Below the pieces are notes generated by a model. The model saw nothing but the letters and a program-made list of their open reading frames with translations. It searched no databases and had not been told where the DNA came from. A DNA stretch of 64,000 bases from an uncultured Pseudomonadales bacterium (GTDB taxonomy: Bacteria > Patescibacteriota > Microgenomatia > UBA1400 > PJMF01), in contig CAZYBC010000004.1 of NCBI GenBank assembly GCA_964645645.1, positions 5,148 through 69,147 on the forward strand, in the 5' to 3' direction. The position numbers and the translations under genes are program-made. This document shows positions 2,701 through 45,328 of the stretch, piece after piece (positions within the stretch are counted from its first letter, which is position 1; the number at the start of each line of letters is the position of its first letter).

Positions 2701-2703
2701 GCC

Positions 2704-32754: not shown

Positions 32755-32897
32755 TTTGCCATTCCGCCTGCGGCGTATTTAATTAGGAAATTAGTAATAC
32801 ACTTTGTAAACCATTCAAACGAAGCTTGTTGCGTTTAATTAAGCTGTTGATGTAAACCATTCCACCTGTGGTGTGTTTACAAAGCCTATGATCAATA
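32755..32897 (-). repeat. Tandem array of three REP-like units of the same family as 5455-5670, in reverse orientation, at the 3' end of the second FtsX-like permease gene
   Basis: Reverse complement gives aaatacgccgcaggcggaatgg (32759-32780), a degenerate middle copy (32808-32836) and ttgatcataggctttgtaaacacaccacaggtggaatggtttac (32852-32897). The last is near-identical to 5455-5500 except ccgcgagcgg becomes ccacaggtgg. Confidence 0.75.
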
Positions 32898-32900
32898 GAC

Positions 32901-34922
32901 CTATTCATATCTCAACGCATTTAATGCTGAAATTTTGGTGGCTCTTTTAGCAGGATAATGACCAGTTAAAATTCCCACAATGGTTGATAAAAACATTACA
33001 GAAATAACAAAAGTAAAAGGAATTACTGAGACATCAACTAAACCAACTCCCTTTACCACAGCTACACTGGATAAAGCCAAACTCAATAATTTTCCTGCGC
33101 TATAACCAATCATCAATCCCAATAAGCCCCCATAAAAACCCATAATCATCGATTCGGTTAAAAATAATTCTTTTACTTCTGCAGATTTCATGCCCATTGC
33201 TTTCATCAAACCTACTTCACGGGTTCTCTCTAATAAAGACACCGTTAAAGTATTAAACATCCCCAAAGTAGCAACTGCTAAAGCCACCATCCCCACTATC
33301 CCTAAAACTAATCTAAAAGTAGCAAACAAATTATTAATCTGAGCAACTGTATCAACTACTGAAACTGTCCCATAACCCATTGATTCAATCGCCGATCTAA
33401 CATTAGCCAACTGATTTTTTTCTTTGACAATAATTTTAATTTGAGACATGCGATTAATGCCCAAAGACCTCAATTCCACAAAAGGAACATAAACTACAGG
33501 CGTATCTTCTTCTGGAGTAACTCCTACAATTTTGTAAGTGGTGGGGGCAGATTCAATTCTTTCTGTTTCTCCCTCAACCAAATTACCAATTGCCACAAAA
33601 GTTAAAGTGATTTCTTGACCGACAGCTTGATTTTCAGCTAAACCGATGACATTTAACACTGCTTTGTTAACTACTGCTTCTCGTAAAGAATTTTTATTGA
33701 GCTCTACAACCTTAATTTTGTTATTTATGGGCATATTAGCCGAACTACTAGCCAAATTAACAATTGGCAAAGTGCCATCAGCTTTAGTAACGCCTAACAC
33801 TTTGGCTGACTCATTGACTGTAATTGGAGAAAGCCAAGCCGTATAACCCTCTTTTATTAATTGTTTGCCAGCTTCATCTCTAAGAGGAATATATTGCCCA
33901 TCTTCACAATCTTGGTCAACCACGGCTAAAGCATTTACCTCGGTTTTTTCTGCCTCAGTTTTAACGCAAGTTTGATTTTTCCACAAAGTAAATTCTGCCT
34001 TAATCCAAAAAGCAGTGTTTGTTGGTAAACTATCTTCTGGACCAGCATAATCGGCATAATGATCACCTAAAACTTGACTGCCATTTTGAGTCTCAGCTAC
34101 TTTTTTAGTGTAACCTAATACCGAACTTTGAGTAGAGGATTCACTACGCACTCTCAGCCACTCACCCTCTTTAATACTAAAAGTTAAAAGCTCAGCGCTA
34201 TCACTAGCTTGCTGAGTTTGACCAGTAATATCAGTAGTAATAATCTTGCTTGATTTTGGTGAAGTAGAACTAACTAAATCATCACTCACAAAAATTTGGC
34301 CGTGAATGGGCTGAATAGCTGAGCTTTTTAAATAATCGGTGGTAACTCCATAAACTGCTAAATCTGAAACAGAATTTTGATAAGAAATTTTACCAACAAC
34401 ACTGATTAAGGGGAGTGTAGCCTTAATTTGTGGCATATCTTTTAAACTAGCCAGCAATGATTCATTTAAAGCAGTTTCTTCACTTAACCCAGGTAAAATT
34501 TCTGCTTGTTCAAGCTCTTCCAACCGAGCCACTCGTGAAGTAACTAAATTTTCTAAACCATAACCAACTGAGACTAAAAAAACAATAAAAGCAATACTAA
34601 TGGCCATCCCGCCAATCGTGACCATGGTTCTGGTTTTTTTAACCTGCATATTGCGGAATGACAATTCAATTAAATAAGATCGGCTTAAAGTTTTTTGCTG
34701 ATTTTTTTCTAAAAAATCCAAAGTTTTTTCATAAAATTTATCAAATTGACCGGCCAAAGAGAGAACAGGTTTTAACCAAAAATAATCTTTTTTAATAGCT
34801 AATAAAAGATTAAAAACAATCTTAAGAGAATATAAAACCACCATTAACATAAAGCTGGCAAGATTTTTAAATCTAAATAACAACATCTTTAACCAGTTGT
34901 TTATTTTTTTCCAAATGATCAT
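32901..34922 (-). CDS. ABC transporter permease, FtsX/MacB-like (paralog of 3444-5450)
   Basis: Same architecture and C-terminal FtsX TM block (LLERTREVGLMKAMGM) as 3444-5450. Confidence 0.8.
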   Translation of the reverse strand: MIIWKKINNWLKMLLFRFKNLASFMLMVVLYSLKIVFNLLLAIKKDYFWLKPVLSLAGQFDKFYEKTLDFLEKNQQKTLSRSYLIELSFRNMQVKKTRTMVTIGGMAISIAFIVFLVSVGYGLENLVTSRVARLEELEQAEILPGLSEETALNESLLASLKDMPQIKATLPLISVVGKISYQNSVSDLAVYGVTTDYLKSSAIQPIHGQIFVSDDLVSSTSPKSSKIITTDITGQTQQASDSAELLTFSIKEGEWLRVRSESSTQSSVLGYTKKVAETQNGSQVLGDHYADYAGPEDSLPTNTAFWIKAEFTLWKNQTCVKTEAEKTEVNALAVVDQDCEDGQYIPLRDEAGKQLIKEGYTAWLSPITVNESAKVLGVTKADGTLPIVNLASSSANMPINNKIKVVELNKNSLREAVVNKAVLNVIGLAENQAVGQEITLTFVAIGNLVEGETERIESAPTTYKIVGVTPEEDTPVVYVPFVELRSLGINRMSQIKIIVKEKNQLANVRSAIESMGYGTVSVVDTVAQINNLFATFRLVLGIVGMVALAVATLGMFNTLTVSLLERTREVGLMKAMGMKSAEVKELFLTESMIMGFYGGLLGLMIGYSAGKLLSLALSSVAVVKGVGLVDVSVIPFTFVISVMFLSTIVGILTGHYPAKRATKISALNALRYE

Positions 34923-35701
34923 TGCTGTAATTTTTCTCCTCGTTTTGTATTATGAATATTTTTTTTAAAATATTCACTGGGATTTGTAGCTTGAGAAATA
35001 ATTTTGCCATCAAACATTTCTAAACTCCGAGAAGCATAATCTAAATATTCCAAATCGTGAGTCACCATAATCACTGTTTTACCTTGCCGATGTAAATTAG
35101 CCAGCAATTTCATCAACTCTTGACCAGATTTAAAATCTAAATTACCAGTTGGCTCATCCGCAATGATTAAATCTGGATTAGTCACCATCGCTCTAGCTAA
35201 AGCCACGCGTTGTTGTTGTCCGCTAGATAACTCTGTAGGGATATAATCTTGCCAATCGGTCATGCCTACTAAATCTAAAACCGCCAAAGCCTTTACGGCA
35301 GCCTCTTTGGCTTTCATGCCGCTTAAACGCAATGGAAACATCACATTTTCTTTAACCGTTAAAGCTTTTACCCAGTTGGGCTGCTGATAAACCATGCCAA
35401 TGTAATATTTTCTTAAATCAGATAGGCCATCTTCATCAAGGCTATCATATAAAGATTGACCTTTAAATAAAACTTTGCCATGAGTAGGTTTTTCCAAGCC
35501 CAATAAAATATGCAATAAGGTAGATTTACCACAACCTGATGGCCCAAAAATTACTAAAAATTCGCCAGCTTTTACGACTAAATTAATATCCATTAAAATA
35601 GGCGTGGCTTGAGCTTTCACAAAAAAAGTTTTATCTATATTAATCGCTTCAAGCACAGGGCGATTAGATTTTGCTGGTAGAGTCTTATTCATTTCAATCA
35701 T
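34919..35701 (-). CDS. ABC transporter ATP-binding protein (paralog of 2704-3447, roughly 55 percent identical by eye)
   Basis: [37 protein letters not shown]. Confidence 0.9.
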
Positions 35702-35704
35702 TGA

Positions 35705-38700
35705 TTATTCCTTAATAATTCGCAAAAAACTAAACGCTGAACTTAAATTTTCCATCACTAAATCAAAAGCTGAGCGAGTGGCTTTGGGCGCAATCGTAGC
35801 CATATCAATACTGAGCGCTTCATTCCCAGCTGCGTCTTTAGAAATAGCTCTTAAGTGATAAACCTGGCTAGGCGTAAGACCAGAAATAATTACCGAGTGA
35901 TTAAGAGTTAAATTGCCATCTTCTTGAGTTTTTTGACCATAACTTGTCCCAGTGCCTTCTCCATATTCTACTTGGGTAGTAGCTGGCTCATCAGTCGTCC
36001 AAGAGACTACCAGTTGAGCTTTTACTTGACCAGCCGCAAAACCAACTGGCGGAATAGTGCCACCAATTACTTTCAACCCAATAATTTGTGATGGTCGAGT
36101 ATCAGTAGCCGTCGTAAACACAAAAGTATCAGAAGAAGCTTCATTGCCAGCTTTATCCAAGCCTTTTACTAGTAGATTATATTGTTGAGAAGGCAAAAAG
36201 CCAGAAATAGTCATCTCTCGATTACCAGCCAACAACTCCACATCAACTTGATCTTTAGCCAGACTGGGTTGACCAACTGGATAATAGCTAACAATTGCTG
36301 AAGTCGGCGTATTGACTGTCCAACTAACTAAAATGGTAGTTTGAGAAGTGCCGGCTACTTCTTGCAAACTCACATTCGTAATCCTTGGTCTAGGCATGGT
36401 AGTAAAAGTTAAAGCCTGACCTTCATACTCATAACCTTCGCTATCAAAAGTATTAATTTTGTAATAATAAGTAGTGCCATCTTCCAGACCAGATAACTCA
36501 GTGGTCACTATATTAGCCGTGGTAGAAGTAGCCACCTCTTTTAAACCACCAAAGGCCGTACTTTTACCATAATAAATTTTAACGCTACTTGCTCCACTAA
36601 CAGTATATTTAATGATGGCACTGCTTAGGCCAATTTGAGTAGCTTGAGGATCTGTGACTGAAGGCGCCGCTTGAGTGGTAAAACGCTTTTCACTACTTGT
36701 ACCAGTGTTACCGTCTTCATCAGTCCACTTCACTTTATAATAATAGACTGTACCTGGAGACAAATTAGTTAAATTAATAGTGTGGTCAGTCACTTGAGAA
36801 GCATTAGATGGTTCTTCGGTAAAATAACTTCCTGAACTAGTGCCAAAAGACACTTTAGAATCACTGTTTCTACTAGTTGTCCAAACAATTTTAGCTTTTC
36901 TGGTAGTCACCGAGCTTTCACTGGGGCCAGAAGTTAAACTAGCCGCCTCAGTATAAGTGCCTTTGGGAGTAAGAGTAACCGCATTGGTATAGGAAGGACT
37001 AGCCGTTGATTCGCTAGAAGTATCACTTGTGCCAATCCGCCAATAATACTGCCTTGATTCGCCAACAGTATCCACATAAGCTGTCCCGCTGGTGGTAGTA
37101 ACAGTAGTCCAAATAGAACCATCGGTTGACCTTTGCACTGTATAGGTTAAGGTACCAGTGCCTTGGTAAGTAGGATGATTCCAAGCTAAAGAAGCCCGCC
37201 ATAAAGAAGCAGATTTAATTGATGCATCAGCCACACTTAAATCTTTGGCTGGATCTGGCATAGTAGAGTTTAAAGTAAAAGTGCCAGCAATATAGTTACT
37301 AGGAGAATAGTTATCTCCGTCATCCACCGCCACTACTCGCACGGTATTGCTCCCTTTTTGCACGCCAGCTAATTCGCTAGCTGATAAACTGGTGCCAGTA
37401 ATAGGGATATAAGTGGCTGAATTAGAAGTTAAAGTGCTCAAAGTTGAAGGCGGAGTAGTATTAATCATGTAGTAATAACTAGCAATCGTTTGCCCATCCG
37501 CCGGCGTAGCCGCTGGCCAGGAAAGAGCAAAAGAATTGCTCGTGCTAGTGGTTGGCGTAATCGTCACCACTGCATCACCAGCAAAAACTGGAGCATCTCC
37601 TCCATAAGCCAAATTCCCAGTTCTATAAGTAGAAGGGGAAGAAACATTGCCAGCTAAATCAACCGTTCTAAAAGAAATAATATTATCACCAATCACTAAA
37701 TAATCACCATCACGAGCTTGAGTTAAATAAAGCGGTTGCTCATAAGCAGCGGGGATATAAGAAATGCCCAATAAAGCATGCGTGCTGGTGCCAAGCCAAT
37801 CACCACTATTATTAAGCATGTATTGCCACCCCAAAACTGCCGAGTGGACATCACTACTAGCTGCACTGCCACTGGTAGGCCAAGAAAAATTCATGTCCAC
37901 AATGTTATTAAATGTTCCAGAAGCAGGATTAATATAGGACACATTAGTCGGCGCAGTATTATCAAAAATAAAACTAAAAGTGGCCATACTGGTGTTATAA
38001 GTATTACCAGCATTATCAATGGCTTTAATATTCAAATGATAAGTGGTGCCATTCACAAAACTACTGGATAAATAATCACCAGCAGATAAATCTAAAACCT
38101 CACTAGCCACAATAAACATACAATCAGTGCCAAGCGTAGAAACTGGAGAATTGGTGAGCAGGCCCGCGGTACCAGATTGCGTTAAATGATTGCCAGGATC
38201 AGCACTAGCTGAAGTACCAAGATACAAACAATAACCTTTTAAGTCTGATCCACCCACATTATCAGCCCCAGCACTCCAGGTAAAATAAGGTTCAGTACTA
38301 TTAGAATAACCAGCCTCTGGAATAGTGTGGCCAGCCACGGCTGACTTCATCACAATGGCGGAGGCATTAGTGGCAGGCTCAGTAATATCAGTGCTGTAGT
38401 CAGCAATACTCACCCCAGGGCTAGTAAAATTTAACCAGCCCACATCTTCACTAAAAGCATAACCACTTAAAGTGCCAGTACTCAGGTTAATCGTTACCGC
38501 ACTATTGTAATTGCTGAAATCAATATAAGCGCCAGTTGCTACCACTAAGGCTTTACCAGCTAAAATCCCGGTATCTGGATCATAAGTGACTGGCCCTTGC
38601 GGATTATCAGTTTCACCAAAAGCCACCCAACCCACATCTTCACTAAACACATAGCCCTCAAAATTGTGGGCAATCATATTAATCCGGACATTAGAATTGT

Positions 38701-38872
38701 AATTATCAAAATCTAAAAAAACACTAGTGTTTGCTGCTACGGCCTTACCAGAGATAGCAAAGCTAGAAGCATAAACCAAAGGATGAAAACTTTTTAGCAC
38801 TAAAAGACCAGCCAGCACTAAACTAACTAACGGCAAAAACTTCTTGGCAGAGTTTAGCTTAAACTTTAACAC
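35705..38872 (-). CDS. Large secreted Fn3/Ig-like-repeat surface protein (1055 aa) with a signal peptide. Paralog of 1-2700.
   Basis: N-terminal signal peptide. The C-terminal 450 aa align with the 25-2700 protein (SWTTSRNSDSKVSFG, LSPGTVYYYKVKWTDEDGNTG). Confidence 0.75.
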   Translation of the reverse strand: MLKFKLNSAKKFLPLVSLVLAGLLVLKSFHPLVYASSFAISGKAVAANTSVFLDFDNYNSNVRINMIAHNFEGYVFSEDVGWVAFGETDNPQGPVTYDPDTGILAGKALVVATGAYIDFSNYNSAVTINLSTGTLSGYAFSEDVGWLNFTSPGVSIADYSTDITEPATNASAIVMKSAVAGHTIPEAGYSNSTEPYFTWSAGADNVGGSDLKGYCLYLGTSASADPGNHLTQSGTAGLLTNSPVSTLGTDCMFIVASEVLDLSAGDYLSSSFVNGTTYHLNIKAIDNAGNTYNTSMATFSFIFDNTAPTNVSYINPASGTFNNIVDMNFSWPTSGSAASSDVHSAVLGWQYMLNNSGDWLGTSTHALLGISYIPAAYEQPLYLTQARDGDYLVIGDNIISFRTVDLAGNVSSPSTYRTGNLAYGGDAPVFAGDAVVTITPTTSTSNSFALSWPAATPADGQTIASYYYMINTTPPSTLSTLTSNSATYIPITGTSLSASELAGVQKGSNTVRVVAVDDGDNYSPSNYIAGTFTLNSTMPDPAKDLSVADASIKSASLWRASLAWNHPTYQGTGTLTYTVQRSTDGSIWTTVTTTSGTAYVDTVGESRQYYWRIGTSDTSSESTASPSYTNAVTLTPKGTYTEAASLTSGPSESSVTTRKAKIVWTTSRNSDSKVSFGTSSGSYFTEEPSNASQVTDHTINLTNLSPGTVYYYKVKWTDEDGNTGTSSEKRFTTQAAPSVTDPQATQIGLSSAIIKYTVSGASSVKIYYGKSTAFGGLKEVATSTTANIVTTELSGLEDGTTYYYKINTFDSEGYEYEGQALTFTTMPRPRITNVSLQEVAGTSQTTILVSWTVNTPTSAIVSYYPVGQPSLAKDQVDVELLAGNREMTISGFLPSQQYNLLVKGLDKAGNEASSDTFVFTTATDTRPSQIIGLKVIGGTIPPVGFAAGQVKAQLVVSWTTDEPATTQVEYGEGTGTSYGQKTQEDGNLTLNHSVIISGLTPSQVYHLRAISKDAAGNEALSIDMATIAPKATRSAFDLVMENLSSAFSFLRIIKE

Positions 38873-39124: not shown

Positions 39125-39823
39125 TTATTTTTCATTGCTTTCTTTTCGCAATTGCAATAAAGAAATAGTCTCTTCTCGCAACTTAGCTCTAGCCCAATCC
39201 TTCTGCCCTTCAGTCAATAATTCACCTGACCCATCCAAAATATTGCGGTTATTCATTTTTTCTAATTTTTTAATACATTTTTCTACTAACGTATCGAAAG
39301 GCATCTCTGCTCGCTGTTCTACAATTTTTTTATTAATTAAAAAACGATTTTTCAAAAAAAACCAAACATCATAAATGTCTCGGCTAGTTTTGCCCATCCG
39401 TTCATACATAGCCATTAATTTATGAGCAAACATATCCTCAGCAACCATCACCAGCATCGACATCCCAAGATAAGTTTTTATTTCATATTTTGAGCCAAAA
39501 TGTCTACGATTGATTTCTATCTTAATATTGTGAGCCTTATCTTGATATGAAAGTAAGCAAAATAAATTATGACGTTTTTTATATGAATCTTTAAGTTGCC
39601 CGTATTTTTTCACAATCTCTACCACTCGCTCAAAAACTAAAGCTTCTTTGTCATCATCCAATAAATCAAAATCAAGATCAACTGAAAATCGATCTAAGCC
39701 ATAAAACATTAACAAAGCTGTTCCGCCTTTAAATCCCAAAAAAGGTGAAATAGTGGTATCAGAATAAATATTTTTCAGAATTTGAAACAAAATAGTTTTA
39801 TGAATTACAATATCAAATGTCAT
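39125..39823 (-). CDS. abiEii: AbiEii-family nucleotidyltransferase toxin (type IV TA / abortive infection)
   Basis: FKGGTALLMFYGLDRFSVDLDF (GGTAL...RFSxDLDF). 4-nt overlap with the upstream abiEi. Confidence 0.7.
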   Translation of the reverse strand: MTFDIVIHKTILFQILKNIYSDTTISPFLGFKGGTALLMFYGLDRFSVDLDFDLLDDDKEALVFERVVEIVKKYGQLKDSYKKRHNLFCLLSYQDKAHNIKIEINRRHFGSKYEIKTYLGMSMLVMVAEDMFAHKLMAMYERMGKTSRDIYDVWFFLKNRFLINKKIVEQRAEMPFDTLVEKCIKKLEKMNNRNILDGSGELLTEGQKDWARAKLREETISLLQLRKESNEK

Positions 39824-40401
39824 AAATTAGATACCTTTTTAAATAAAGACTGCACTTTTTTTTCTAGACTTTTATTTTCATATAATGGTAATAATTGAAA
39901 TATTTTTTTCCAATCAAGCGCTCTTAAATTATCAAAATGATAATCAGTGCTATGATACAAAATGTCCAAAAATGATCTTTCTTTGGTGGCAATAGAAACA
40001 CCATTTGTTTGTTGAATTCCAATGGAATTAGCTAAGATAGCACTTTTTACTTTTCGATATGAATAAATTTGCCCATCAATAATAATTTTTCTACTTAAAT
40101 AAGACGCAACCGTAATCACTGTTTGATATTGGAAGATTAAACCTTCTTTTGCCAAAACAGTTTCAAAACTAACATAAGAGGGTAAAAATATTCTAGTGGC
40201 TAGTTCTAATTTGTTATAATTTTTGTCTTTGACGTAGATGCCTTTGCGCAATCGATAAAGCTGGCCTTTTTTAACATAATAATTTAAACGAACTCTAGCA
40301 GATGTTGTATCATCATCCTGCCACAATAAAGCCAAGTCTTTTAAAGTAAAGACTGTTTTATTTAATCTTAAAATAATATCTAAATAATTACCTTTTTGCA
40401 T
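39820..40401 (-). CDS. abiEi: AbiEi-family antitoxin / transcriptional regulator
   Basis: Size, position upstream of and overlapping abiEii, and an N-terminal wHTH-like segment. Confidence 0.6.
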   Translation of the reverse strand: MQKGNYLDIILRLNKTVFTLKDLALLWQDDDTTSARVRLNYYVKKGQLYRLRKGIYVKDKNYNKLELATRIFLPSYVSFETVLAKEGLIFQYQTVITVASYLSRKIIIDGQIYSYRKVKSAILANSIGIQQTNGVSIATKERSFLDILYHSTDYHFDNLRALDWKKIFQLLPLYENKSLEKKVQSLFKKVSNL

Positions 40402-40404
40402 ATT

Positions 40405-40443
40405 TTGAACTGTAAGTTAGGTTTAACCTAACCTACAGTTCAA
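40405..40443. promoter_or_regulatory. 39-bp near-perfect palindrome abutting the abiEi start codon (TTGAACTGTAAGTTAGGTT-t-AACCTAACCTACAGTTCAA). Candidate AbiEi autoregulatory operator or RBS-sequestering hairpin.
   Basis: 19-bp arms with one mismatch, read directly. Confidence 0.5.
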
Positions 40444-40719
40444 AATATATGCTTAATTAAAATCACTGTCAAGCAGCAGCTAGATAAAATAGATGCACTT
40501 GGAAAAAAATTTCTTTATGATAATTAAGCTCTAACATAAAGTGGCCAGATTTTTAAACAGCTATGCTATTTAGCTACAGCTATTAAAAGAGAAGTTTAAT
40601 AAATTAAAAGGCGATTTACTTACCTATTTTTTAGGTATAAATAACCCACTTTTTTTATCTAAAAACCAGCTAAAATACTTAGCTTTACGATAAGAAAGTC
40701 TACAAAGTAAATCTTTTTT

Positions 40720-40865
40720 AGCCAATTATTGGTCTGGCACGACTAACACCACTAATACTAATAACGCTTGGTACACTAATCTAAGCAATGGCAACACGAA
40801 CAACAATACCAAGACTACAGCTACATATTCATTTCGGTGTGTGTTTTAGTCTAAGGACTTTTAAA
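40720..40865 (+). other. DGR template repeat (TR)
   Basis: 146 bp matching the reverse complement of 42462-42607, with differences only at 13 TR adenines. Located immediately upstream of avd. Confidence 0.92.
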
Positions 40866-40872
40866 GAAAACT

Positions 40873-41229
40873 ATGTTTTATCAAAGCATGCCACTTTATC
40901 TAGAGCTGATTAACTTACTCAAGTTAGAATATAAGCTAAATAAAAATATTGCCAAACAATATCGTTATTCTTTGGGAGAAAAAATTATTGATTTAACCTG
41001 GCAAATGCTGGATTTATTTATTGAAGTTCAACATTTAAGCAACATTTCAAACTCTAATAAAACAGCTCTCATTAAAACAATGATTGCTGATCATGAAAAA
41101 TTGCAATTACGGCTCAGATTTTTAGGAGAATTGCAACTAATTTCTCTTAAACAACAAGCTCAATTGCTTGCTCATACAACGGCTATTGGCAAAATGCTGG
41201 GCAGCTGGCTAAAACATGTCCCAAAATAA
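40873..41229 (+). CDS. avd: DGR accessory variability determinant (Avd, four-helix-bundle family)
   Basis: 118 aa, helical, bAvd-like layout. Lies directly between the TR and the RT and overlaps the RT by 14 nt. Confidence 0.75.
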   Translation: MFYQSMPLYLELINLLKLEYKLNKNIAKQYRYSLGEKIIDLTWQMLDLFIEVQHLSNISNSNKTALIKTMIADHEKLQLRLRFLGELQLISLKQQAQLLAHTTAIGKMLGSWLKHVPK

Positions 41230-42400
41230 AACTAGCACAATTTTTACTTATCAAAAAATTCTTAAAGCTTATTTTTTCTGCCGAAAACATAAGCGTCAAG
41301 CTCTGAGTGCTTTGGCTTATGAACTAAACTTTGAGAAAAATCTTGGTCAATTGATAGAGCAGCTACAAAATAAAACCTATCAACCCCAAAGTGCGGTTTA
41401 TTTTATTGTTACCAAACCAAAACCTAGGGAAATTTTTGCCAGTGAATTTGGAGATAGAATTACCCATCATTTGCTTATTAACGAAGTAGAAAAAATCTGG
41501 GAAAAAGACATTTTCATCACTGATTCTTATGCTTGTAGAAAGGGCAAAGGCCACCATTTTGCCCTCCAAAGAGTGAAAAACTTAGCTAAAAAGTATCGAT
41601 ATTATGGCCAATTTGATATTAGTAATTTTTTCTCTAGTATTGATAAAAATATTTTATTTGAAATTTTTGCCAAAGTTATAAAAACACAAGCAAAACCAGA
41701 ATTCTGGAAAAATAATCTTTTATGGCTAACTAAAATAATTATTTTTTCTGATCCCACCCAAGATTTTTTTTATAAAGGCAATCAAAAATTAAAAAAATTA
41801 GTGCCAGCACAAAAGTCATTATTTAATCAAGAACCAGAAATTGGCTTGCCGATTGGCAATCTAAGTAGCCAATTTCTGGCTAATGTTTATCTTAATGAAC
41901 TAGATCAATTTGTAAACAAAAAGCTTAAAATAACCGCCTACGCTAGGTACGTTGATGACTTTTTAATCTTTAGTAATTCAAAAACTAAAGTTATTCAAGC
42001 CAGAAATCAAATTAAAGAATTTTTAAAAACTGAACTCAAATTAACCTTGCATCCTAAAAAACAGCAAATTCAAACTACTTGGCATGGCATTCCTTTTGTT
42101 GGCTACTTTATTAAGCCAGGTGGAGCGCAAGTTAGAAGAAATGTGGTAAAAACTCTTAAAAATAAATTGTTTTATGCCCAAAAACTCAAAAATTTACCCC
42201 AAATCATTACCTCTTTAAATTCTTATTATGGCCATTTTATTCATGCTAATTCATATCGCTTAAGAAAACACCTTTTTAAACAACATCTAAGTCAAGAATT
42301 TCATCAGTATCTGTGGGTAAAAGGTCATTACCAATCTTTTTGGCCAACTAAAAAGTTTTTTGCTAAAGGAAAAAATCTTTCCTTTAGCAAAAAAAAATAA
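41216..42400 (+). CDS. DGR reverse transcriptase
   Basis: RT motifs SYACRKGKGHHFAL (motif 2-like), LPIGNLSSQFLANVYLNELD (motif B') and YVDDFLIF (YxDD). 394 aa, typical for DGR RTs. Confidence 0.9.
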   Translation: MSQNKTSTIFTYQKILKAYFFCRKHKRQALSALAYELNFEKNLGQLIEQLQNKTYQPQSAVYFIVTKPKPREIFASEFGDRITHHLLINEVEKIWEKDIFITDSYACRKGKGHHFALQRVKNLAKKYRYYGQFDISNFFSSIDKNILFEIFAKVIKTQAKPEFWKNNLLWLTKIIIFSDPTQDFFYKGNQKLKKLVPAQKSLFNQEPEIGLPIGNLSSQFLANVYLNELDQFVNKKLKITAYARYVDDFLIFSNSKTKVIQARNQIKEFLKTELKLTLHPKKQQIQTTWHGIPFVGYFIKPGGAQVRRNVVKTLKNKLFYAQKLKNLPQIITSLNSYYGHFIHANSYRLRKHLFKQHLSQEFHQYLWVKGHYQSFWPTKKFFAKGKNLSFSKKK

Positions 42401-42411
42401 AAAAACTCAAA

Positions 42412-42463
42412 CCCGCCTTTGGCGGGAATAAAAACCTAAGTTTCAGATTCTGAAACTTAGGTT
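42412..42463. terminator. Two adjacent hairpins (CCCGCCtttGGCGGG and AACCTAAGTTTCAGAttcTGAAACTTAGGTT) between the convergent RT and target genes
   Basis: Perfect stems read directly. The second hairpin lies immediately 3' of the VR on the target sense strand. Confidence 0.6.
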
Positions 42464-42607
42464 TAAAAGGCCTTAGACTAAAACACACACCGAAATGAAT
42501 ATGTAGCTGTAGTCTTGGTAAGGTTGTACGTGACGCCACTGCTTAGATGAGTGTACCAAGCGTTATTAGTAACAGTGGTGGAAGTCGTGCCAGACCAATA
42601 AGTGGCT
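42462..42607 (-). other. DGR variable repeat (VR), covering the last 42 codons and the stop of the target gene
   Basis: See TR. VR codons T,S,V,H,S,V,Y,L correspond to TR AAT/AAC codons. Confidence 0.92.
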
Positions 42608-43371
42608 GCACTATTACTTAAAAACTCAGCTGAGCCATCTATATAGGCCATCATCAACTCTTTTTGATAAGGCAAGCGCCAACCAGTACCTAAAGCTTCA
42701 CAGCCGGTTTTACTACTAATTAGTTTTACACACTTACAAGCCACATCGCCATGAGCAACACAAGAGCCAGGATTCTCCGCTGAACCAGGCTGAGCACAAT
42801 TATTCGCCGTAAACCAATTCGCCGCACTACTAATTCTAGCCGACCAGACTAAGCCAGTGTTGGCATCCTGCTTTTCTGCTTGAGCATTACTAGTATTACA
42901 GTAAGTATTCGCTTCATTACAAGTGGTCCAGCTAGCCAGATAACTCCCAGTTGGTAAAGTAGTAGCATCATGAATCCCGCCCACACTCTGTGGATAATCT
43001 GCATTTCCGCCATTATATGTACCATTAGCCTTAGCATCATTAAAAGTTCCTCTGGCAGCCGCATTAATTCTATTCCAGTAAGCCCCCCAATCTCCCCAGG
43101 ACCCAGCGGCCGTACTACCATAATCTAAAGTTGTTAAAGCATCAGCGAGTTGTTTTAAACGAGAATCAGCCTCAGATTCTGGAGAAGAACCTGTCTGTTC
43201 GGCGCGAATAATTTTAATTTGCCGGTTAAGACTCAGCCCTACCAAAACTAAAAACCCCACGGACAAAACTAACTGCCACGAAAAAATTTTTTGGCTTCTT
43301 ACAAATAGCAAGCGGATTTTTTGAAAAAATTTCATACTAATAATATGACGGATTAGAGAATGAGGTGTCAA
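42478..43371 (-). CDS. DGR target protein: secreted or membrane-anchored DUF1566 / C-type-lectin-fold (FGE-like) protein with the VR at its C-terminus
   Basis: GWRLPYQKELMMAY (DUF1566 WRLPT.EL motif), N-terminal hydrophobic anchor, C-terminal ...YSFRCVF typical of DGR CLec-fold targets. Confidence 0.85.
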   Translation of the reverse strand: MTPHSLIRHIISMKFFQKIRLLFVRSQKIFSWQLVLSVGFLVLVGLSLNRQIKIIRAEQTGSSPESEADSRLKQLADALTTLDYGSTAAGSWGDWGAYWNRINAAARGTFNDAKANGTYNGGNADYPQSVGGIHDATTLPTGSYLASWTTCNEANTYCNTSNAQAEKQDANTGLVWSARISSAANWFTANNCAQPGSAENPGSCVAHGDVACKCVKLISSKTGCEALGTGWRLPYQKELMMAYIDGSAEFLSNSAATYWSGTTSTTVTNNAWYTHLSSGVTYNLTKTTATYSFRCVF

Positions 43372-43380
43372 GACTTAGTA

Positions 43381-43433
43381 AGTATAGCCTAATTAAACCA
43401 TTCCGCTTGCGGTGTGTTTAATAAGGCTATACT
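43381..43433. repeat. Single REP-like element with 11-bp flanking arms (agtatagcct...aaggctatact)
   Basis: Core aaaccattccgcttgcggtgtgttta is the reverse complement of aaacacaccgcaagcggaatggttt. Confidence 0.7.
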
Positions 43434-43442
43434 TACCAAGAT

Positions 43443-44201
43443 TTATACCGTTGTAATACTCTCAAATGGCAGGCTTTTGATAAGTTCCTCAATCTGACTG
43501 TCATCTACCTGCTTGGAATAGTAAATCTGGCCCATTTCCTGCTCTTTTTCAGTAGCAATTACCTTCCAGTTGGTTTGGATACTGGCTTTAGTAATTGGTC
43601 GGCGAATTTCCTTTTGCCGGACATATGAAATAATTTCATCCAAATCCAGCTGGTACTTTTCCAAAAGTAAGTAGATATCATAGAAATCTCGATAACGAGC
43701 CCGATCACTCATAGCTCGGATTTTCTCAGCACAGACTTCTCTGATATCCATAACAGACACTTTAAAATCTACACCCCAGACATTGTGATAAACCATCGTT
43801 TGAGGTGTAAGTAACACATTTTGCAAGAAGTCGATTTCTACCTTGAGCGAATTGGGCTGAATAAGTGGTCCCATATACTGAAGTTTTTCAAACTTAATTG
43901 TGGCATTAGAAAGATAGTCCTTTTTTATACTCAGATAATCAATATTATCAAAAATTTCCCTAATTTCTTCAAGTGACAACTGTGTTTTATTTGAAGAAAA
44001 ATCTAAATCCTCAGAAAAACGATATTGATCCAAATAACAGTGATGAAGGGCTGTGCCACCCTTAAAAATAAGATTTTTGCCAATTTTAGAAGCGGCAATA
44101 ATCTGCATTACCAGAGCTAAGAAATAATCCTTCTCAGCAATATGTAAAGGATAACGCAAACTTTTACGATTGATAATTTCAAGTTGTTGTCTAGTAAGCA
44201 T
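43443..44201 (-). CDS. abiEii: AbiEii-family nucleotidyltransferase toxin (second copy)
   Basis: IFKGGTALHHCYLDQYRFSEDLDF. Confidence 0.7.
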   Translation of the reverse strand: MLTRQQLEIINRKSLRYPLHIAEKDYFLALVMQIIAASKIGKNLIFKGGTALHHCYLDQYRFSEDLDFSSNKTQLSLEEIREIFDNIDYLSIKKDYLSNATIKFEKLQYMGPLIQPNSLKVEIDFLQNVLLTPQTMVYHNVWGVDFKVSVMDIREVCAEKIRAMSDRARYRDFYDIYLLLEKYQLDLDEIISYVRQKEIRRPITKASIQTNWKVIATEKEQEMGQIYYSKQVDDSQIEELIKSLPFESITTV

Positions 44202-44206
44202 AGGGT

Positions 44207-44989
44207 TTATTTAACTGACTGATATTTATCAAAATAAGCATCATAATATAATCGCCATTTGGCATTAAACTTAGTATCTCCAAAAATCATCAGGTGAGTA
44301 CCTTTTAACTTAACTTGATTATAAAGATCACTAGAATCAATTCCTAAAAGATCAAATAAGAAACCAAATATCTTAATGGTAACTAAAGACATCTTACCTA
44401 AATACTCAATCATTCTTTGTATATCAAGTGAACTTTTATACAATGAGAGCTTTTCCACAACCAAATCAACAGTATATTTGCTTTTATGGAATTGAATCAT
44501 ATCAATTAAGGCTTTTTCAGCCGTGGCCATACGCACTGTCTTATTATCTATAATTACCTCTTCCCAACCAAAAAACCATTTATCCAATACTTTTACAAAG
44601 CTATACTCGGCTGACTGCAATTGCACCGTCTTATACTGCACCTGAGAGATTGAAATAGTTTTGTTGGTTAGTTGGTCAAACATGCCATGATAAGCTAAAG
44701 CTGACTCAAAAGAGATGTAAGAATCTTTAACTAAAAGATTGGCAACGACATAGGGCGAGAGAGATAAAAATCCACGGTTGCTCAGGTCAGAGATGGCATA
44801 CAAACCTTTTTTTACCCGAATCAGCCAGCCGTTGTGGGTTAATTTAACAATTACCTTTTTTGTCCTCTGCTGGTTCCACAATCCCTCAGCCTGGCTATAA
44901 ATCTGCTCAGAAGTCACAATTTGGCCATGTTTGACGATCAGATTCTCTAGAAGCATGCTTTGATTGGTGTTTAGAATAGTTTGTTTCAT
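44207..44989 (-). CDS. abiEi: AbiEi-family antitoxin (second copy)
   Basis: 260 aa, upstream of abiEii. Two-domain layout resembling 39820-40401 over the N-terminal domain. Confidence 0.6.
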   Translation of the reverse strand: MKQTILNTNQSMLLENLIVKHGQIVTSEQIYSQAEGLWNQQRTKKVIVKLTHNGWLIRVKKGLYAISDLSNRGFLSLSPYVVANLLVKDSYISFESALAYHGMFDQLTNKTISISQVQYKTVQLQSAEYSFVKVLDKWFFGWEEVIIDNKTVRMATAEKALIDMIQFHKSKYTVDLVVEKLSLYKSSLDIQRMIEYLGKMSLVTIKIFGFLFDLLGIDSSDLYNQVKLKGTHLMIFGDTKFNAKWRLYYDAYFDKYQSVK

Positions 44990-45281: not shown

Positions 45282-45328
45282 ATAGTTTCACTAAATCATT
45301 CCACTTGTAGTGCATTTAGTGAGACTAT
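45282..45328. repeat. Diverged REP-like element upstream of uvrA
   Basis: atagtttcactAAATCATTCCACttgtaGTGCATTTagtgagactat. The inner palindrome CAC..GTG replaces CCGC..GCGG. Confidence 0.55.

What the first reader, a model, noticed from the sequence alone, without database searches (positions are those of the whole stretch)
40720..43371. Complete diversity-generating retroelement with textbook adenine-specific TR/VR divergence
Template repeat and variable repeat:
- The 146-bp template repeat (40720-40865) aligns base for base with the reverse complement of the 3' end of the convergent gene 42478-43371 (VR 42462-42607).
- All 13 mismatches sit at TR adenines and none elsewhere: aa>tc, aa>gt, a>c, a>g, aa>gt, a>t, aa>ct, a>c.
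- In the target reading frame every mutated site lies in a TR AAT/AAC codon. TR reads N,N,N,N,N,N,N,N,N; VR reads T,S,V,H,S,V,Y,L, with one N kept.
- This is the defining signature of DGR mutagenic homing.

Locus composition:
- An Avd-like 118-aa gene and a 394-aa RT (YVDD box) sit between TR and VR.
- The target has the DUF1566 WRLP..EL motif and ends ...FRCVF, typical of CLec-fold DGR targets.
- It has an N-terminal membrane or signal anchor, so it is probably surface-displayed.

This is the strongest non-housekeeping system in the window.
Basis: seen in the sequence. Interest (0 to 1): 0.9.

Follow-up and report, generated by a model that had tools for sequence, protein, structure and literature searches.

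The report
Diversity-generating retroelement with upstream primer RNA
This is a complete and probably working diversity-generating retroelement in a tiny uncultured (Patescibacteria) bacterium that rewrites the tip of a lectin-like surface protein; the element is an ordinary member of a well-known class, but its template is preceded by a conserved folded RNA that seems to carry the priming site, which in the only studied model lies after the template.

Summary
TR 40720-40865 (+) and VR 42462-42607 (-) align without gaps over 146 nt, and all 13 mismatches fall on TR adenines (P about 4e-7).

- **Components:** the RT is of the DGR type: its best solved relative is the Bordetella-phage bRT, and it carries IGNLSSQ and YVDD. 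An Avd gene overlaps the RT start. The target is a membrane-anchored Lcl_C/DUF1566 protein with a modelled C-type-lectin fold.
- **Activity:** near-identical relatives from other metagenomes keep the TR and differ almost only at TR-adenine positions of the VR, so the lineage is active.
- **Host:** Patescibacteria, judged from UvrA homologues.
- **Corrections:** the TR has 11 AAY codons (8 changed). The 13th mismatch lies after the stop codon and is fixed in all 14 clade TR/VR pairs examined. The target probably starts at ATG 43335.

As a DGR this is a new member of a known kind.

The added finding is a conserved structured RNA directly 5' of the TR (40541-40719), found in 27 instances. It holds a strand complementary to the TR 3' end, a GCG linker and a helix abutting the TR start. 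These elements occur in the same order as the primer strand and stop duplex of the Bordetella "Sp" RNA, but upstream of the TR. No Rfam family matches it.

The parts
40519..40524 (+). Possible -10 box (GATAAT) of the leader-TR-avd-RT transcript
   Evidence: A TATAAT/TATTAT-like box lies 18-25 nt upstream of the conserved GGCCAG in the window and its relatives (alignment A7). It was not picked up by the sigma-70 scan. Inferred, low confidence.
40541..40719 (+). Conserved structured leader RNA directly 5' of the TR. P1 strand GGCCAG 40543-40548 may pair with TR 40729-40734. P2 40551-40561/40579-40588, with P2a 40565-67/40573-75. Primer strand UUAAAAG 40604-40610. Linker GCG 40611-13. P3 5' strand 40614-40621. 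P4 hairpin 40622-40636. Window-specific inserted hairpin 40668-40684. P3 3' strand 40705-40712.
   Evidence: RNAalifold on 11 loci gave 17 pairs with compensatory changes. Pair counts: 93.6% paired against 81.5% shuffled; on 27 instances, 92.6% against 64.8%. Covariance models R1 and R2 find it 5' of the TR in the loci where a TR was mapped, and nowhere in 366 kb of more distant DGR loci. No Rfam family matches.
40720..40865 (+). Template repeat (TR). It lies in no ORF of 50 aa or more. Changed adenines span 40725-40806. The 3' limit of information transfer lies between 40843 and 40857. A40857 is the fixed TR-specific adenine. CUUUUAA 40858-40864 is complementary to leader 40604-40610.
   Evidence: alignment; no ORF; L002 shares non-A changes and a 3-nt deletion in both TR and VR up to 40843; leader pairing.
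40873..41229 (+). avd, the accessory variability determinant (118 aa). It overlaps the RT start by 14 nt. A possible hairpin spans its start codon (40872-40890).
   Evidence: Pfam bAvd PF22296 at 50.9 bits against a cut-off of 40. NCBIfam DivGenRetAVD at 48.8 bits, below its cut-off of 80. The hairpin has only weak covariation.
41216..42400 (+). DGR reverse transcriptase (394 aa). IGNLSSQ is at nt 41852-41872 and YVDD at nt 41948-41959.
   Evidence: Best PDB hit is 8ub7, the Bordetella-phage bRT, at E 9.2e-30. Pfam RVT_1. Scores for group II intron, retron and Drt models are all far below their cut-offs. There are 5920 homologues with E<1e-10; among the named ones in the top 120 are Microgenomates-group MAGs.
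42356..42394 (.). 18-bp palindrome inside the last codons of the RT
   Evidence: Terminator-like scan. Its function is not established.
42412..42426 (.). GC hairpin CCCGCC-AAA-GGCGGG followed by a T run on the - strand. Probably the terminator of the target gene.
42432..42464 (.). 15-bp stem with a 3-nt loop, starting at the last bases of the TR/VR homology. It sits where the hairpin/cruciform that promotes homing sits in the Bordetella and Legionella DGRs.
   Evidence: The 86-nt stretch 42400-42485, which holds this hairpin and the GC hairpin 42412-42426, folds at dG -21.1 kcal/mol with z -7.4. In most clade relatives read, a hairpin, usually GC-rich, follows within about 10 nt of AGGCCTTTA.
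42462..42607 (-). Variable repeat (VR). Its last 16 nt (42462-42477) lie after the stop codon and form the candidate IMH. This includes the palindrome AGGCCT at 42468-42473, which the TR lacks (AGGACT).
42478..43335 (-). Target gene (285 aa). It has an N-terminal basic stretch plus a hydrophobic helix (membrane anchor), a cysteine-rich region and a C-terminal Lcl_C/DUF1566 C-type-lectin-fold domain that ends in the VR.
43342..43371 (-). Promoter-like site of the target gene (TTGACA, 18 nt, CATATT), ending 7 nt before ATG 43335
   Evidence: 10 of 12 matches. A consensus match only.

Best explanation
The locus is a complete, chromosomal and probably active diversity-generating retroelement of the Patescibacteria (CPR) type.

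**Proposed mechanism**
1. One transcript starts about 10 nt upstream of 40541 and carries a structured leader, the TR, avd and the RT gene (inferred).
2. Avd and the RT form a complex on this RNA (by homology with Bordetella phage BPP-1).
3. cDNA synthesis begins at the 3' end of the TR, where the TR tail CUUUUAA (40858-40864) pairs with the leader strand UUAAAAG (40604-40610). It then runs back through the TR. It stops at helix P3, which abuts the TR start. The pairing and the helix are supported by covariation; priming and stopping are inferred by analogy with the BPP-1 TR:Sp primer duplex and cPRT-stop duplex.
4. The RT copies all bases faithfully except adenines (signature shown; chemistry inferred from conserved R71, I213 and Q219).
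5. The cDNA replaces the VR at the 3' end of the convergent target gene. The 3' limit of replacement lies between 40843 and 40857 (TR coordinates) and is marked by the fixed AGGCCT/AGGACT difference and the adjacent hairpin (comparative evidence).

**Outcome**
Eleven AAY codons in the ligand-binding face of a membrane-anchored C-type-lectin-fold surface protein can be varied. In principle this allows about 15^11, or 9e12, sequences.
For: - **A-specific divergence:** all 13 of 13 mismatches are at TR adenines, P 3.8e-7. There is a single VR in the window.
- **RT:** DGR type. It has the [I/V/L]GxxxSQ motif and the residues shown to promote A-mutagenesis (PMC7826257).
- **Avd:** above the Pfam cut-off.
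- **Target:** CLec fold.
- **Hairpin next to the VR:**
- **Directional TR-to-VR transfer:** in sister locus L002 (94% identical), non-adenine substitutions and a 3-nt deletion of the TR are mirrored in the VR.
- **Ongoing diversification in the clade:** L085 and L086 come from different metagenomes and are 99.6% identical over 4231 nt. Of their 16 differences, about 15 are in the VR at TR-adenine positions, and their TRs are identical. L083 and L084 behave likewise.
- **Conserved layout:** the order TR-avd-RT with a convergent target is kept in almost all clade loci examined, L093 being the exception.
- **Leader structure and covariation:**
- **Primer-strand pairing with the TR 3' end:** within the close clade, 80/91 cells pair against 56/91 or fewer when slid. 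Across 22 loci the longest cognate complementary run averages 8.05 nt against 6.12 for non-cognate pairs, and no permutation of 5000 reaches that. Runs reach 14 bp and end 3 nt before P3 in 11 of 22 loci.
- **P3 and the TR start:** the P3 3' strand ends 0-19 nt before the start of TR/VR homology.
- **Element order:** stem-loop, primer strand, 2-3 nt, stop strand, stem-loop, unpaired A-rich stretch. This matches the BPP-1 Sp RNA.
- **Resident element:** the GC content of the element equals that of the window, 35.3% against 35.4%.
Against: - No read-level data were available, so VR heterogeneity in this organism itself is not shown. The second assembly of the same VR (L001) is identical.
- Activity is inferred from intact parts and from relatives.
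- The priming role of the leader rests on covariation and analogy only.
- Shuffle tests of the primer duplex in single loci are not significant on their own, because the sequences are AT-rich.
- In two distant loci (L010, L017) a second copy of the P3 5' strand also lies 3' of the TR, so a BPP-1-like upstream:downstream duplex is an alternative there.
- The predicted first template base, A40857, is never seen transferred, since the VR always has C there. This needs the extra assumption that the cDNA's 5' end is not incorporated.
- The NCBIfam Avd model scores below its cut-off.
- No promoter was found by the consensus scan.
Confidence: 0.9

Rival explanations
1. A fossil DGR. The parts look intact, but the element no longer diversifies in this organism, and the TR/VR differences record past events only.
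For: Only one VR allele is seen for this genome, in two assemblies. There is no expression or read data. Wu et al. (PMC5758913) advise caution when inferring that DGRs found in genomic sequences are functional.
Against: All ORFs are full length with catalytic and signature residues intact. The TR keeps all 11 AAY codons. The leader, the primer pairing, the IMH-like difference and the hairpin are all intact. The closest relatives show very recent VR turnover with unchanged TRs, and TR-to-VR transfer occurred after the split from L002.
Confidence: 0.1
2. The conserved RNA 5' of the TR is a regulatory 5' leader and not the primer/stop RNA. It might be an attenuator, an Avd or RT autoregulatory site, or a stabilising structure. 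The true Sp equivalent would then lie 3' of the TR, inside the avd coding sequence.
For: A hairpin spans the avd start codon directly after the TR, where Handa et al. place putative Avd-binding stem-loops in many DGRs. In L010 and L017 a strand able to pair with the segment upstream of the TR also exists 3' of the TR. No biochemical data exist.
Against: - The avd-start hairpin shows one compensatory change and at least two uncompensated disruptions.
- The leader keeps its position directly 5' of the TR whatever the order and orientation of avd, RT and target. It occurs as leader-TR-avd-RT, RT-leader-TR and leader-TR-RT, and with the RT inverted. In L090 it is duplicated together with the TR. 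This fits a part of the template RNA better than a gene regulator.
- The strand just 5' of P3 covaries with the TR 3' end.
- The TR/VR homology starts at the foot of P3.
Confidence: 0.25
3. This is not a DGR. The repeat is an ordinary duplicated gene fragment, and the RT belongs to a group II intron, a retron or an abortive-infection/defence system linked to the neighbouring AbiE genes.
For: AbiEii/AbiEi pairs flank the locus on both sides. Weak NCBIfam similarities exist to group II, retron, Drt and AbiA RT models.
Against: All those models score far below their cut-offs: 114 against 300, 62 against 235, and 54 against 200. The bRT match is 15 orders of magnitude better than any other RT in the PDB. 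Mismatches fall only at adenines. No Rfam family reached its gathering score anywhere in the window apart from three tRNAs, and only chance-level matches (E 0.06 or higher) were found across the locus. The AbiE pairs sit at different positions, or are absent, in relatives.
Confidence: 0.01

Closest known systems
Bordetella phage BPP-1 DGR (mtd-avd-TR-Sp-brt)
   Same: - It has the same parts: a DGR-clade RT, Avd, a TR/VR pair with adenine-only divergence, a VR at the 3' end of a C-type-lectin-fold ligand-binding protein, a TR/VR discriminator at the 3' end (IMH/IMH*) and a hairpin after the VR.
- The RNA elements are equivalent and in the same order: stem-loop, primer strand pairing with the TR 3' end, 2-3 nt, a strand of the duplex that abuts the TR 5' end, a short stem-loop and unpaired adenosines.
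   Different: - The gene order is leader-TR-avd-RT, and the target is convergent on the other strand.
- There is no spacer between TR and RT. The primer and stop elements lie 5' of the TR instead of 3', in the order leader-template-RT; to my knowledge this is the msr-msd-RT order of retrons.
- The stop duplex forms within the leader rather than between segments on either side of the TR.
- The Rfam RT-10 motif, the BPP-1 spacer, gives no match.
- The IMH is AT-rich with a single fixed difference, not a GC-rich 14-mer.
- The element is cellular, not phage-borne.
Patescibacteria (CPR) DGRs as catalogued by Wu et al. 2018 (CPR set, architecture B3) and Roux et al. 2021 (DGR clade 2)
   Same: - The host lineage agrees: UvrA is 73% identical to Ca. 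Woesebacteria and 68-69% to Ca. Pacebacteria.
- The location is cellular, and no close relatives were found in IMG/VR.
- The TR lies upstream of avd and the RT.
- RT relatives at 57-67% identity are named Microgenomates or Patescibacteria.
   Different: I could not confirm that the exact sub-architecture (TR-avd-RT all on one strand, single convergent target) is one of the 48 listed, because the supplementary tables are not held. Neither paper describes a structured RNA 5' of the TR.
Legionella pneumophila DGR target LdtA and the DUF1566/CLec2 target class (category d of Wu et al.)
   Same: The VR overlaps a DUF1566 (Lcl_C) match, the protein is surface-exposed, and the diversified C-terminus ends ...RCV(R/F) (PMC5758913).
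   Different: The anchor here is an N-terminal transmembrane helix in a bacterium of a phylum generally regarded as lacking an outer membrane, not an outer-membrane lipoprotein. No sequence-level PDB match was found.
Legionella Lcl C-terminal domain (PDB 8q4e) and Bdellovibrio Bd2740 C-terminal domain (8oks)
   Different: Sequence identity is only 16-25%.
Retrons (msr-msd-RT)
   Same: The topology of the RNA is the same. A structured RNA with the priming region lies 5' of the template. A duplex forms between a strand just 5' of the priming nucleotide and the sequence just 3' of the template start. The RT gene lies downstream (general retron knowledge; PMC8867640).
   Different: The RT is not of the retron type: NF038233 scores 62 bits against a cut-off of 235. 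The cDNA is used to rewrite a gene, there is an Avd partner, and there is no known effector.

Membership tests
Diversity-generating retroelement (DGR) | Reverse transcriptase of the DGR clade with the [I/V/L]GxxxSQ motif in place of QGxxxSP, and a catalytic YxDD box | tested here: met
   The best PDB relative is bRT 8ub7 at E 9.2e-30, against 5e-14 or weaker for other RT classes. IGNLSSQ is at residues 213-219 and YVDD at 245-248 (motif definition from PMC7826257).
Diversity-generating retroelement (DGR) | A TR/VR pair whose differences fall (almost) only at TR adenines | tested here: met
   13 of 13 mismatches are at TR adenines, P 3.8e-7.
Diversity-generating retroelement (DGR) | The VR lies inside a protein-coding target gene, usually at its 3' end, and the TR is not translated | tested here: met
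   The VR covers the last 42 codons plus 16 nt after the stop codon of the 285-aa gene. No ORF of 50 aa or more covers the TR.
Diversity-generating retroelement (DGR) | Variable residues encoded by AAY codons and displayed on a C-type-lectin (or Ig) fold | tested here: met
   There are 11 AAY codons. The modelled domain matches Lcl_C and C-type-lectin domains, and also TvpA and Mtd. Surface exposure of the individual variable residues was not measured.
Diversity-generating retroelement (DGR) | Accessory protein (Avd in most DGRs) next to the RT | tested here: met
   Pfam bAvd scores 50.9 bits against a cut-off of 40, and the gene overlaps the RT start. The NCBIfam equivalog falls below its cut-off, and there is no PDB sequence match.
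Diversity-generating retroelement (DGR) | IMH in the VR and a non-identical IMH* in the TR that mark the 3' limit of mutagenesis | tested here: inconclusive
   A fixed difference, AGGCCT in the VR against AGGACT in the TR, lies directly 3' of the transfer limit in all 14 clade TR/VR pairs examined, the window included. Its function cannot be tested here. There is no GC-rich 14-mer.
Diversity-generating retroelement (DGR) | Inverted repeat (hairpin/cruciform) just downstream of the VR (present in about a third of DGRs) | tested here: met
   A 15-bp stem lies at 42432-42464; the 86-nt stretch that holds it folds with z -7.4. Hairpins are present in most relatives.
Diversity-generating retroelement (DGR) | Ongoing mutagenic retrohoming (VR variants within a population, TR invariant) | tested here: inconclusive
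   This is shown for close clade members, L085/L086 and L083/L084, and TR-to-VR transfer since the split from L002 is shown. For this genome only one allele is available, and no reads could be examined.
Diversity-generating retroelement (DGR) | Adenine-mutagenic cDNA synthesis by RT-Avd on the TR RNA | not testable with these tools
   This requires biochemistry or cDNA sequencing.
Bordetella-phage-type DGR RNA (TR followed by spacer Sp; Rfam RT-10) | [quoted passage not shown] | tested here: not met
   Only 7 nt separate the TR from the avd start codon. No match to RT-10 or to any RT-n motif reached threshold; the only near hit was RT-14 at 22 bits against a gathering score of 48. Equivalent elements lie 5' of the TR instead.
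Group II intron | RT/maturase above the model cut-off, plus intron RNA domains | tested here: not met
   TIGR04416 scores 114 bits against a cut-off of 300. No intron RNA family was found.
Retron | A retron-type RT with msr/msd RNA | tested here: not met
   NF038233 scores 62 bits against a cut-off of 235. The RNA order resembles that of retrons, but the RT clade, the Avd partner and the TR/VR pair are those of a DGR.

The most novel reading that the evidence does not exclude
A large lineage of DGRs uses a second, so far undescribed organisation of the DGR RNA. The lineage includes this Patescibacteria clade and relatives in MAGs labelled Omnitrophota, Desulfobacteraceae and Treponema.

- The strand that pairs with the TR 3' end (and so the priming nucleotide), the stop duplex, its stem-loop and the A-rich stretch sit in a structured leader 5' of the template. 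In Bordetella phage they sit in a spacer 3' of it.
- The order is therefore that of a retron (primer RNA, template, RT).
- The leader and the TR form one portable module. It keeps its arrangement whatever the order and orientation of avd, RT and target, and it can be duplicated as a unit (L090).
Probability: 0.4. Interest if true: 0.65.

Novelty: new member of a known kind. Interest (0 to 1): 0.4.

Why it matters
As a DGR the locus adds little. Such elements are common in Patescibacteria, and the target class (DUF1566, C-type lectin fold) is known.

It is nevertheless a clean and compact example. It has a single target, 11 AAY codons and a membrane-anchored lectin-fold protein, in an organism thought to live attached to other cells. 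Rapid variation of a surface binder is plausible biology for attachment to hosts or evasion of phages.

The wider value lies in the RNA:
- How cDNA synthesis is primed and stopped has been worked out for one phage element only.
- Many DGRs have no spacer between TR and RT in which the known elements could sit.
- The leader described here gives a concrete, testable answer for a large group of them. It names specific nucleotides to mutate: 40604-40613, P3, and 40857-40864.
- It also suggests an evolutionary link in RNA layout between DGRs and retrons.
- A compact leader-TR module that is independent of gene order could be useful for engineering targeted mutagenesis systems.

Tried and rejected
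- **Exact look-up of the RT:** it found no contig. The target look-up worked instead.
- **PDB sequence searches:** nothing useful for the target or for Avd. For the target, fold comparison was needed.
- **RNAduplex between the whole leader and the TR 3' region:** it gave inconsistent, loop-ridden duplexes and was dropped.
- **Per-locus shuffle tests of the primer duplex:** not significant on their own because the sequences are AT-rich. The permutation across loci was used instead.
- **Hairpin over the avd start codon:** considered as the Sp or Avd-binding equivalent. It has one synonymous compensatory change (L093) against uncompensated disruptions (L085, L090a), so it is left open.
- **Pairing P1 (leader GGCCAG with TR CUGGUC):** it is compatible in most loci. 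It shows no double changes, because the TR side is fixed by the Trp-Ser codons, so it is unproven.
- **Viral collections:** the RT search found no relatives. The 46 matches to the leader motif AAAGGCGATTCNNTCACC were all chance, with 0 covariance-model hits.
- **Rfam:** no family matches the leader, either at the gathering thresholds or at E<=1 to 10. There was only a chance-level RT-14 match downstream of the RT.
- **Literature:** Paul et al. 2017 (PMC5436926) and the supplementary tables of Wu et al. are not held. I therefore could not check whether this exact architecture or the leader has been noted there.
- **Sigma-70 consensus scan:** it found no + strand promoter upstream of the leader.
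- **Additional targets:** none in the window.

Full report
**1. The observation**

The window contains one long inverted repeat that involves the region: 40720-40865 on the + strand and 42462-42607 on the - strand. It is 146 nt long, ungapped and 91% identical.

There are 13 mismatches, and in every one the + strand copy has an adenine. That copy has 51 A in 146 nt, so the chance that all 13 fall on A is 3.8e-7. Scoring only the 90 non-adenine positions of the TR core against the whole window on both strands gives 90/90 for the VR and at most 44/90 elsewhere. There is therefore one VR and one target in these 64 kb.

Twelve mismatches hit first or second positions of eight AAY codons in the frame of the convergent gene, giving N>T, S, V, H, S, V, Y, L.

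- The TR has 11 AAY codons. Eight are changed and three are kept.
- The 13th mismatch (A40857 against C at 42470) lies after the stop codon. It recurs unchanged in all 14 clade TR/VR pairs examined, the window included. It is a fixed TR/VR discriminator, not a mutagenesis product.
- The TTG at 43371 that opens the maximal ORF is the first half of a -35-like TTGACA. The -10 ends 7 nt before ATG 43335, and the 285-aa product from that ATG is the form on record.

**2. The proteins**

*RT.* The 394-aa ORF 41216-42400 matches Pfam RVT_1. Among solved structures it matches the Bordetella-phage DGR reverse transcriptase best (8ub7, E 9.2e-30). Group II intron, retron and other RTs reach only 5e-14 or worse.

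In that alignment bRT R74 and I181 correspond to R71 and I213. These are the two residues shown to promote adenine misincorporation. The DGR signature [I/V/L]GxxxSQ is IGNLSSQ (213-219), and the catalytic box is YVDD.

NCBIfam models for group II intron, retron, Drt and AbiA RTs all score far below their cut-offs.

*Avd.* The 118-aa ORF 40873-41229 overlaps the RT start by 14 nt. It passes Pfam's cut-off for bAvd (50.9 against 40 bits). It stays below the NCBIfam equivalog cut-off and has no sequence match in the PDB.

*Target.* The target matches Pfam Lcl_C (DUF1566) above cut-off. It has 186 homologues, almost all with the same domain and the same build: a basic and hydrophobic N-terminus, a conserved AEQSGSSPESG segment, eight conserved cysteines, and a C-terminal WRLP...YWS...RCV(R/F) module that holds the VR.

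- Bdellovibrio Bd2740, intimin/invasin and many C-type lectin domains;

The C-type-lectin fold is thus confirmed at the level of a confident model.

**3. Host and setting**

UvrA, encoded 2 kb away, is 73% identical to a Candidatus Woesebacteria protein and 68-69% to Candidatus Pacebacteria proteins. The named relatives of the RT and the target are from Microgenomates or Patescibacteria. The GC content of the element equals that of the window. No close RT relative exists in the viral collection.

The element is therefore a resident chromosomal DGR of a Patescibacteria bacterium. This is the group in which cellular DGRs are known to abound (PMC5758913; PMC8144416, DGR clade 2).

It lies between two features:
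- an operon for a 1055-aa FN3-repeat surface protein with a MacB-type ABC transporter, which is syntenic in relatives L087 and L088;
- uvrA, with an AbiEi/AbiEii pair on each side of the DGR.

**4. Evidence that the mechanism operates**

*Sister locus.* A contig from another sample (L002) is 94.4% identical over 2.9 kb. Differences between the two loci peak in the VR, at 28 per 100 nt. Relative to the window, the L002 TR carries several non-adenine substitutions and a 3-nt deletion. The L002 VR carries the same changes. This is the signature of directional TR-to-VR copying after the two lineages split. It also places the 3' limit of transfer between 40843 and 40857.

*Clade relatives.* In the next clade (RT 59-67% identical), L085 and L086 come from different metagenomes and are 99.6% identical over 4231 nt. 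Of their 16 differences, about 15 lie in the VR at TR-adenine positions, and the TRs are identical. L083 and L084 behave the same way. The lineage is therefore diversifying now.

*This genome.* Only one VR allele is available (L001 is identical), so activity here is inferred and not shown.

**5. Architecture**

A TR/VR scanner run on 82 related loci found adenine-biased pairs in 57. Most have the canonical order: VR, then TR just upstream of the RT.

Almost all members of the window's own clade share its layout (L002, L003, L083-L088, L091, L092, L095-L097). The TR lies directly upstream of avd, followed by avd-RT, with the target convergent on the other strand. L093 is the exception, with its target on the same strand.

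The RT-to-VR distance varies from 12 nt to 2.6 kb, because unrelated cassettes are inserted there. These are DUF6922+AbiEii, an AbiEi/AbiEii pair about 43% identical to the pair that sits upstream of the TR in the window, and an AAA_14/DUF4143 ATPase.

Wu et al. report that TR-upstream architectures dominate their CPR set. I could not verify the exact sub-type, because the supplements are not held.

**6. The 3' end of the repeats**

After the stop codon, all 14 clade TR/VR pairs examined (the window included) read AGGACTTT in the TR and AGGCCTTT in the VR. The VR version creates the palindrome AGGCCT.

In the window a 15-bp hairpin starts at the last bases of the homology. A GC hairpin with a T run follows it, and then an 18-bp palindrome inside the RT's last codons. 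The stretch 42400-42485, which holds the first two hairpins, folds at dG -21.1 kcal/mol with z -7.4.

In most relatives read, a hairpin, usually GC-rich, follows within about 10 nt of AGGCCTTTA. This matches the place and kind of the IMH and cruciform elements known from Bordetella and Legionella. The sequence here is AT-rich.

**7. A conserved structured RNA 5' of the TR**

Only 7 nt separate the TR from the avd start codon. The 140-nt spacer (Sp) that primes and controls reverse transcription in Bordetella phage therefore has no room at its usual place.

The 180 nt upstream of the TR are conserved in the clade. RNAalifold on 11 loci predicts the following, and 17 of the predicted pairs show compensatory changes:
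- a long hairpin P2 (window 40551-40588);
- a helix P3 (40614-40621 with 40705-40712) that encloses a hairpin P4 of variable sequence (40622-40636);
- a possible pairing P1 of the leader's 5' GGCCAG with TR CUGGUC.

*Pair counts.* For P2 and P3, 93.6% of cells pair against 81.5% in shuffles, 13 of 20 pairs show double changes, and slid registers give 37-52%.

*Covariance model R1.* A model built from these 11 sequences finds the element in every clade locus. It finds it twice in L090, each copy followed by its own TR-like repeat, with the layout leader-TR-avd-leader-TR'-RT. In more distant loci (L004, L008, L023, L052) the hit ends 1-8 nt before the TR that the independent scanner had located. 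In L004 and L023 that TR lies on the strand opposite the RT. No hit occurs in 366 kb of still more distant DGR loci.

*Covariance model R2.* A second model adds L007, L011, L013 and L014 (order RT-leader-TR). It also adds L010, L017 and L045 (leader-TR-RT, in MAGs labelled Omnitrophota and Desulfobacteraceae), L068 (Treponema), L044 and L005.

*All 27 instances.* 92.6% of cells pair against 64.8% in shuffles, and 156 cells have double changes against 44. The caveat is that this alignment is fitted to the model.

*Databases.* No Rfam family reaches threshold on the leader, including the RT-1 to RT-19 motifs of Weinberg et al., of which RT-10 is the BPP-1 spacer.

**8. What the leader probably does**

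The cryo-EM work on the Bordetella element describes the order of Sp elements:
- an Avd-binding stem-loop;
- a primer strand (Sp 47-56) that pairs with TR 118-129 directly 3' of the first copied base;
- two nucleotides;
- a strand (Sp 59-70) that pairs with the segment just 5' of the TR to form the "cPRT stop" duplex, where cDNA synthesis ends;
- a short stem-loop;
- unpaired adenosines.

The leader shows the same order: P2 stem-loop, a single-stranded stretch ending in UUAAAAG (40604-40610), the nearly invariant GCG (40611-13), the P3 5' strand, the P4 stem-loop and an A-rich unpaired stretch. The P3 3' strand follows, and it ends 7 nt before the TR.

*Primer pairing in the close clade.* UUAAAAG is complementary to CUUUUAA (40858-64), the TR tail directly 3' of the fixed A40857. 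The pairing holds in 63/65 cells for 5 bp and in 80/91 for 7 bp. Slid registers give 56/91 or fewer. There are compensatory U:A to C:G, A:U and G:C changes.

*Primer pairing in distant loci.* The sequences are entirely different but remain complementary and in the same geometry:

| Locus | Leader strand | TR 3' strand | Length |
|---|---|---|---|
| L007 | AAAAUCUAUU | AAUAGAUUUU | 10 bp |
| L014 | UGCGAGUUGUAAAU | AUUUACAACUCGUG | 14 bp |
| L045 | AAACAUUGU | AUAAUGUUU | 9 bp |
| L052 | AAAUAUUGU | AUAAUGUUU | 9 bp |
| L068 | GCUUUUGUGUAAAA | UUUUACACAAAAGC | 14 bp |
| L004 | UAUUUAAAG | CUUUAAAUA | 9 bp |

*Statistics across 22 loci.* The longest cognate run averages 8.05 nt against 6.12 for non-cognate combinations. 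No permutation of 5000 reaches the observed value. In 11 loci the run ends exactly 3 nt before P3.

*P3 and the TR start.* The TR/VR homology starts 0-19 nt after the P3 3' strand. This is what one expects if P3 is where cDNA synthesis stops.

*Conclusion.* I conclude that the leader is the functional counterpart of Sp, rearranged so that primer and stop elements precede the template. That is the order seen in retrons (msr, msd, RT).

What is shown is a conserved structure, its constant position 5' of the TR, and covariation of the primer strand with the TR 3' end. What is inferred is priming from the leader, the identity of the priming nucleotide (G40610 or G40611), A40857 as the first template base, and stopping at P3.

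*A difficulty.* The VR always has C opposite A40857, so the first cDNA nucleotide is apparently not transferred.

*Alternative.* The leader could be a regulatory 5' leader, with the true Sp inside avd. This is not excluded. It fits the data less well, because the leader follows the TR, not the genes, through every rearrangement.

**9. Comparison and verdict**

The locus meets every testable defining feature of a DGR. It belongs with the Patescibacteria DGRs and the DUF1566/CLec2 target class typified by Legionella LdtA.

It differs from the Bordetella model in gene order, target orientation, IMH composition and the placement of the RNA control elements. It is neither a group II intron nor a retron by the RT models. 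The flanking AbiE pairs are separate cassettes.

As a DGR it is a new member of a known kind and is not surprising to a specialist. The leader RNA is the part worth following up, since I found no description of it in Rfam 15 or in the papers I could search. Paul et al. 2017 and the final published form of Handa et al. could not be read.

Overall interest is 0.4. If the leader-priming model is right and undescribed (probability about 0.4), it would deserve about 0.65.

Noticed in passing
window 39125-40401 (-) and 43443-44989 (-); L085 3161-4029, L088 5329-6595: Two AbiEi/AbiEii (type IV toxin-antitoxin) pairs flank the DGR. They are only 24-29% identical to each other. In relatives, AbiE-type cassettes sit at a different place, between the RT and the target. 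The L088 pair is about 43% identical to the window's upstream pair. An AAA_14/DUF4143 ATPase occupies that slot in L087. The DGR locus looks like a recurrent landing site for small defence or addiction cassettes.
   Followed up: partly
window 5468-5669, 32755-32889, 43375-43430, 45292-45328: A REP-like palindromic element of about 35-60 nt (core TAAACCATTCCGCYTGCGGTGTGTTTA inside a longer hairpin) occurs in at least nine copies. Two of them bracket the second AbiE pair. No Rfam family reached its gathering score there.
   Followed up: no
window 25-5450 (+) and 32901-38872 (-): There are two paralogous operons in inverted orientation, about 27 kb apart. Each encodes a giant FN3/Pur_ac_phosph_N-repeat secreted protein (891 or more aa, and 1055 aa), an ABC ATPase and a MacB/FtsX permease. 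They are 71-74% identical at the DNA level in parts. The second operon is the conserved upstream neighbour of the DGR in L087 and L088.
   Followed up: partly
window 40406-40440: A perfect 14-bp-arm palindrome (GAACTGTAAGTTAGGTTTAACCTAACCTACAGTTC) lies between a strong -strand promoter-like site (TTGACA 40472 ... TATATT 40444) and the AbiEi start codon. It may be an operator for AbiEi autoregulation.
   Followed up: no
L090 1945-2990: This related DGR has two complete leader+TR modules, in the order leader-TR-avd-leader-TR'-RT. The two TRs differ at many positions, which suggests two templates served by one RT.
   Followed up: partly
L005 566-1020: In this relative the loop of leader hairpin P4 (16-bp stem CGCCCCCCACCACTTTT/AAAAGTGGTGGGGGGC) holds an insertion of about 270 nt. 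On reading, the insertion appears to encode a small ORF that looks GIY-YIG-like; no family search was run on it. The P3 3' strand still lies next to the TR.
   Followed up: no
L010 and L017, about 20-30 nt after the TR/VR homology end: In these leader-TR-RT loci a second copy of the P3 5' strand (GCUUAC / GCUCAC) lies 3' of the TR. It could pair with the same segment upstream of the TR, as in Bordetella phage. This may reflect alternative conformations or an evolutionary intermediate between the two RNA layouts.
   Followed up: no
downstream of the VR in L091-L097 and L003 (e.g. L096 about 1600-1690); window 42400-42431: T-tract motifs of the form TTTGG/TTTGA repeat with roughly 10-nt spacing after the post-VR hairpin in many relatives. 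They resemble phased A-tracts and might bend the DNA at the homing site.
   Followed up: no
window 42336-42461 (+): There is a sub-threshold Rfam match to RT-14 RNA (22.4 bits, gathering score 48.1, E 3.9) over the three hairpins between the RT and the VR. It is probably chance.
   Followed up: no
L083-L086 flanks: The clade DGRs in L083-L086 sit next to ArdC-like, Replic_Relax and TraG/VirD4-like genes. They may therefore ride on a conjugative or integrative element in Patescibacteria, unlike the window's chromosomal setting.
   Followed up: no
window 59545-59802: A 39-nt (13-codon) tandem repeat occurs in at least five copies, at 65-87% identity to the reference copy, within a coding region.
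   Followed up: no
L083 2340-2487: The VR of L083 carries two 3-nt insertions relative to its TR. The VR of L084, which has the same TR, does not. This is an example of length variation arising during homing.
   Followed up: no
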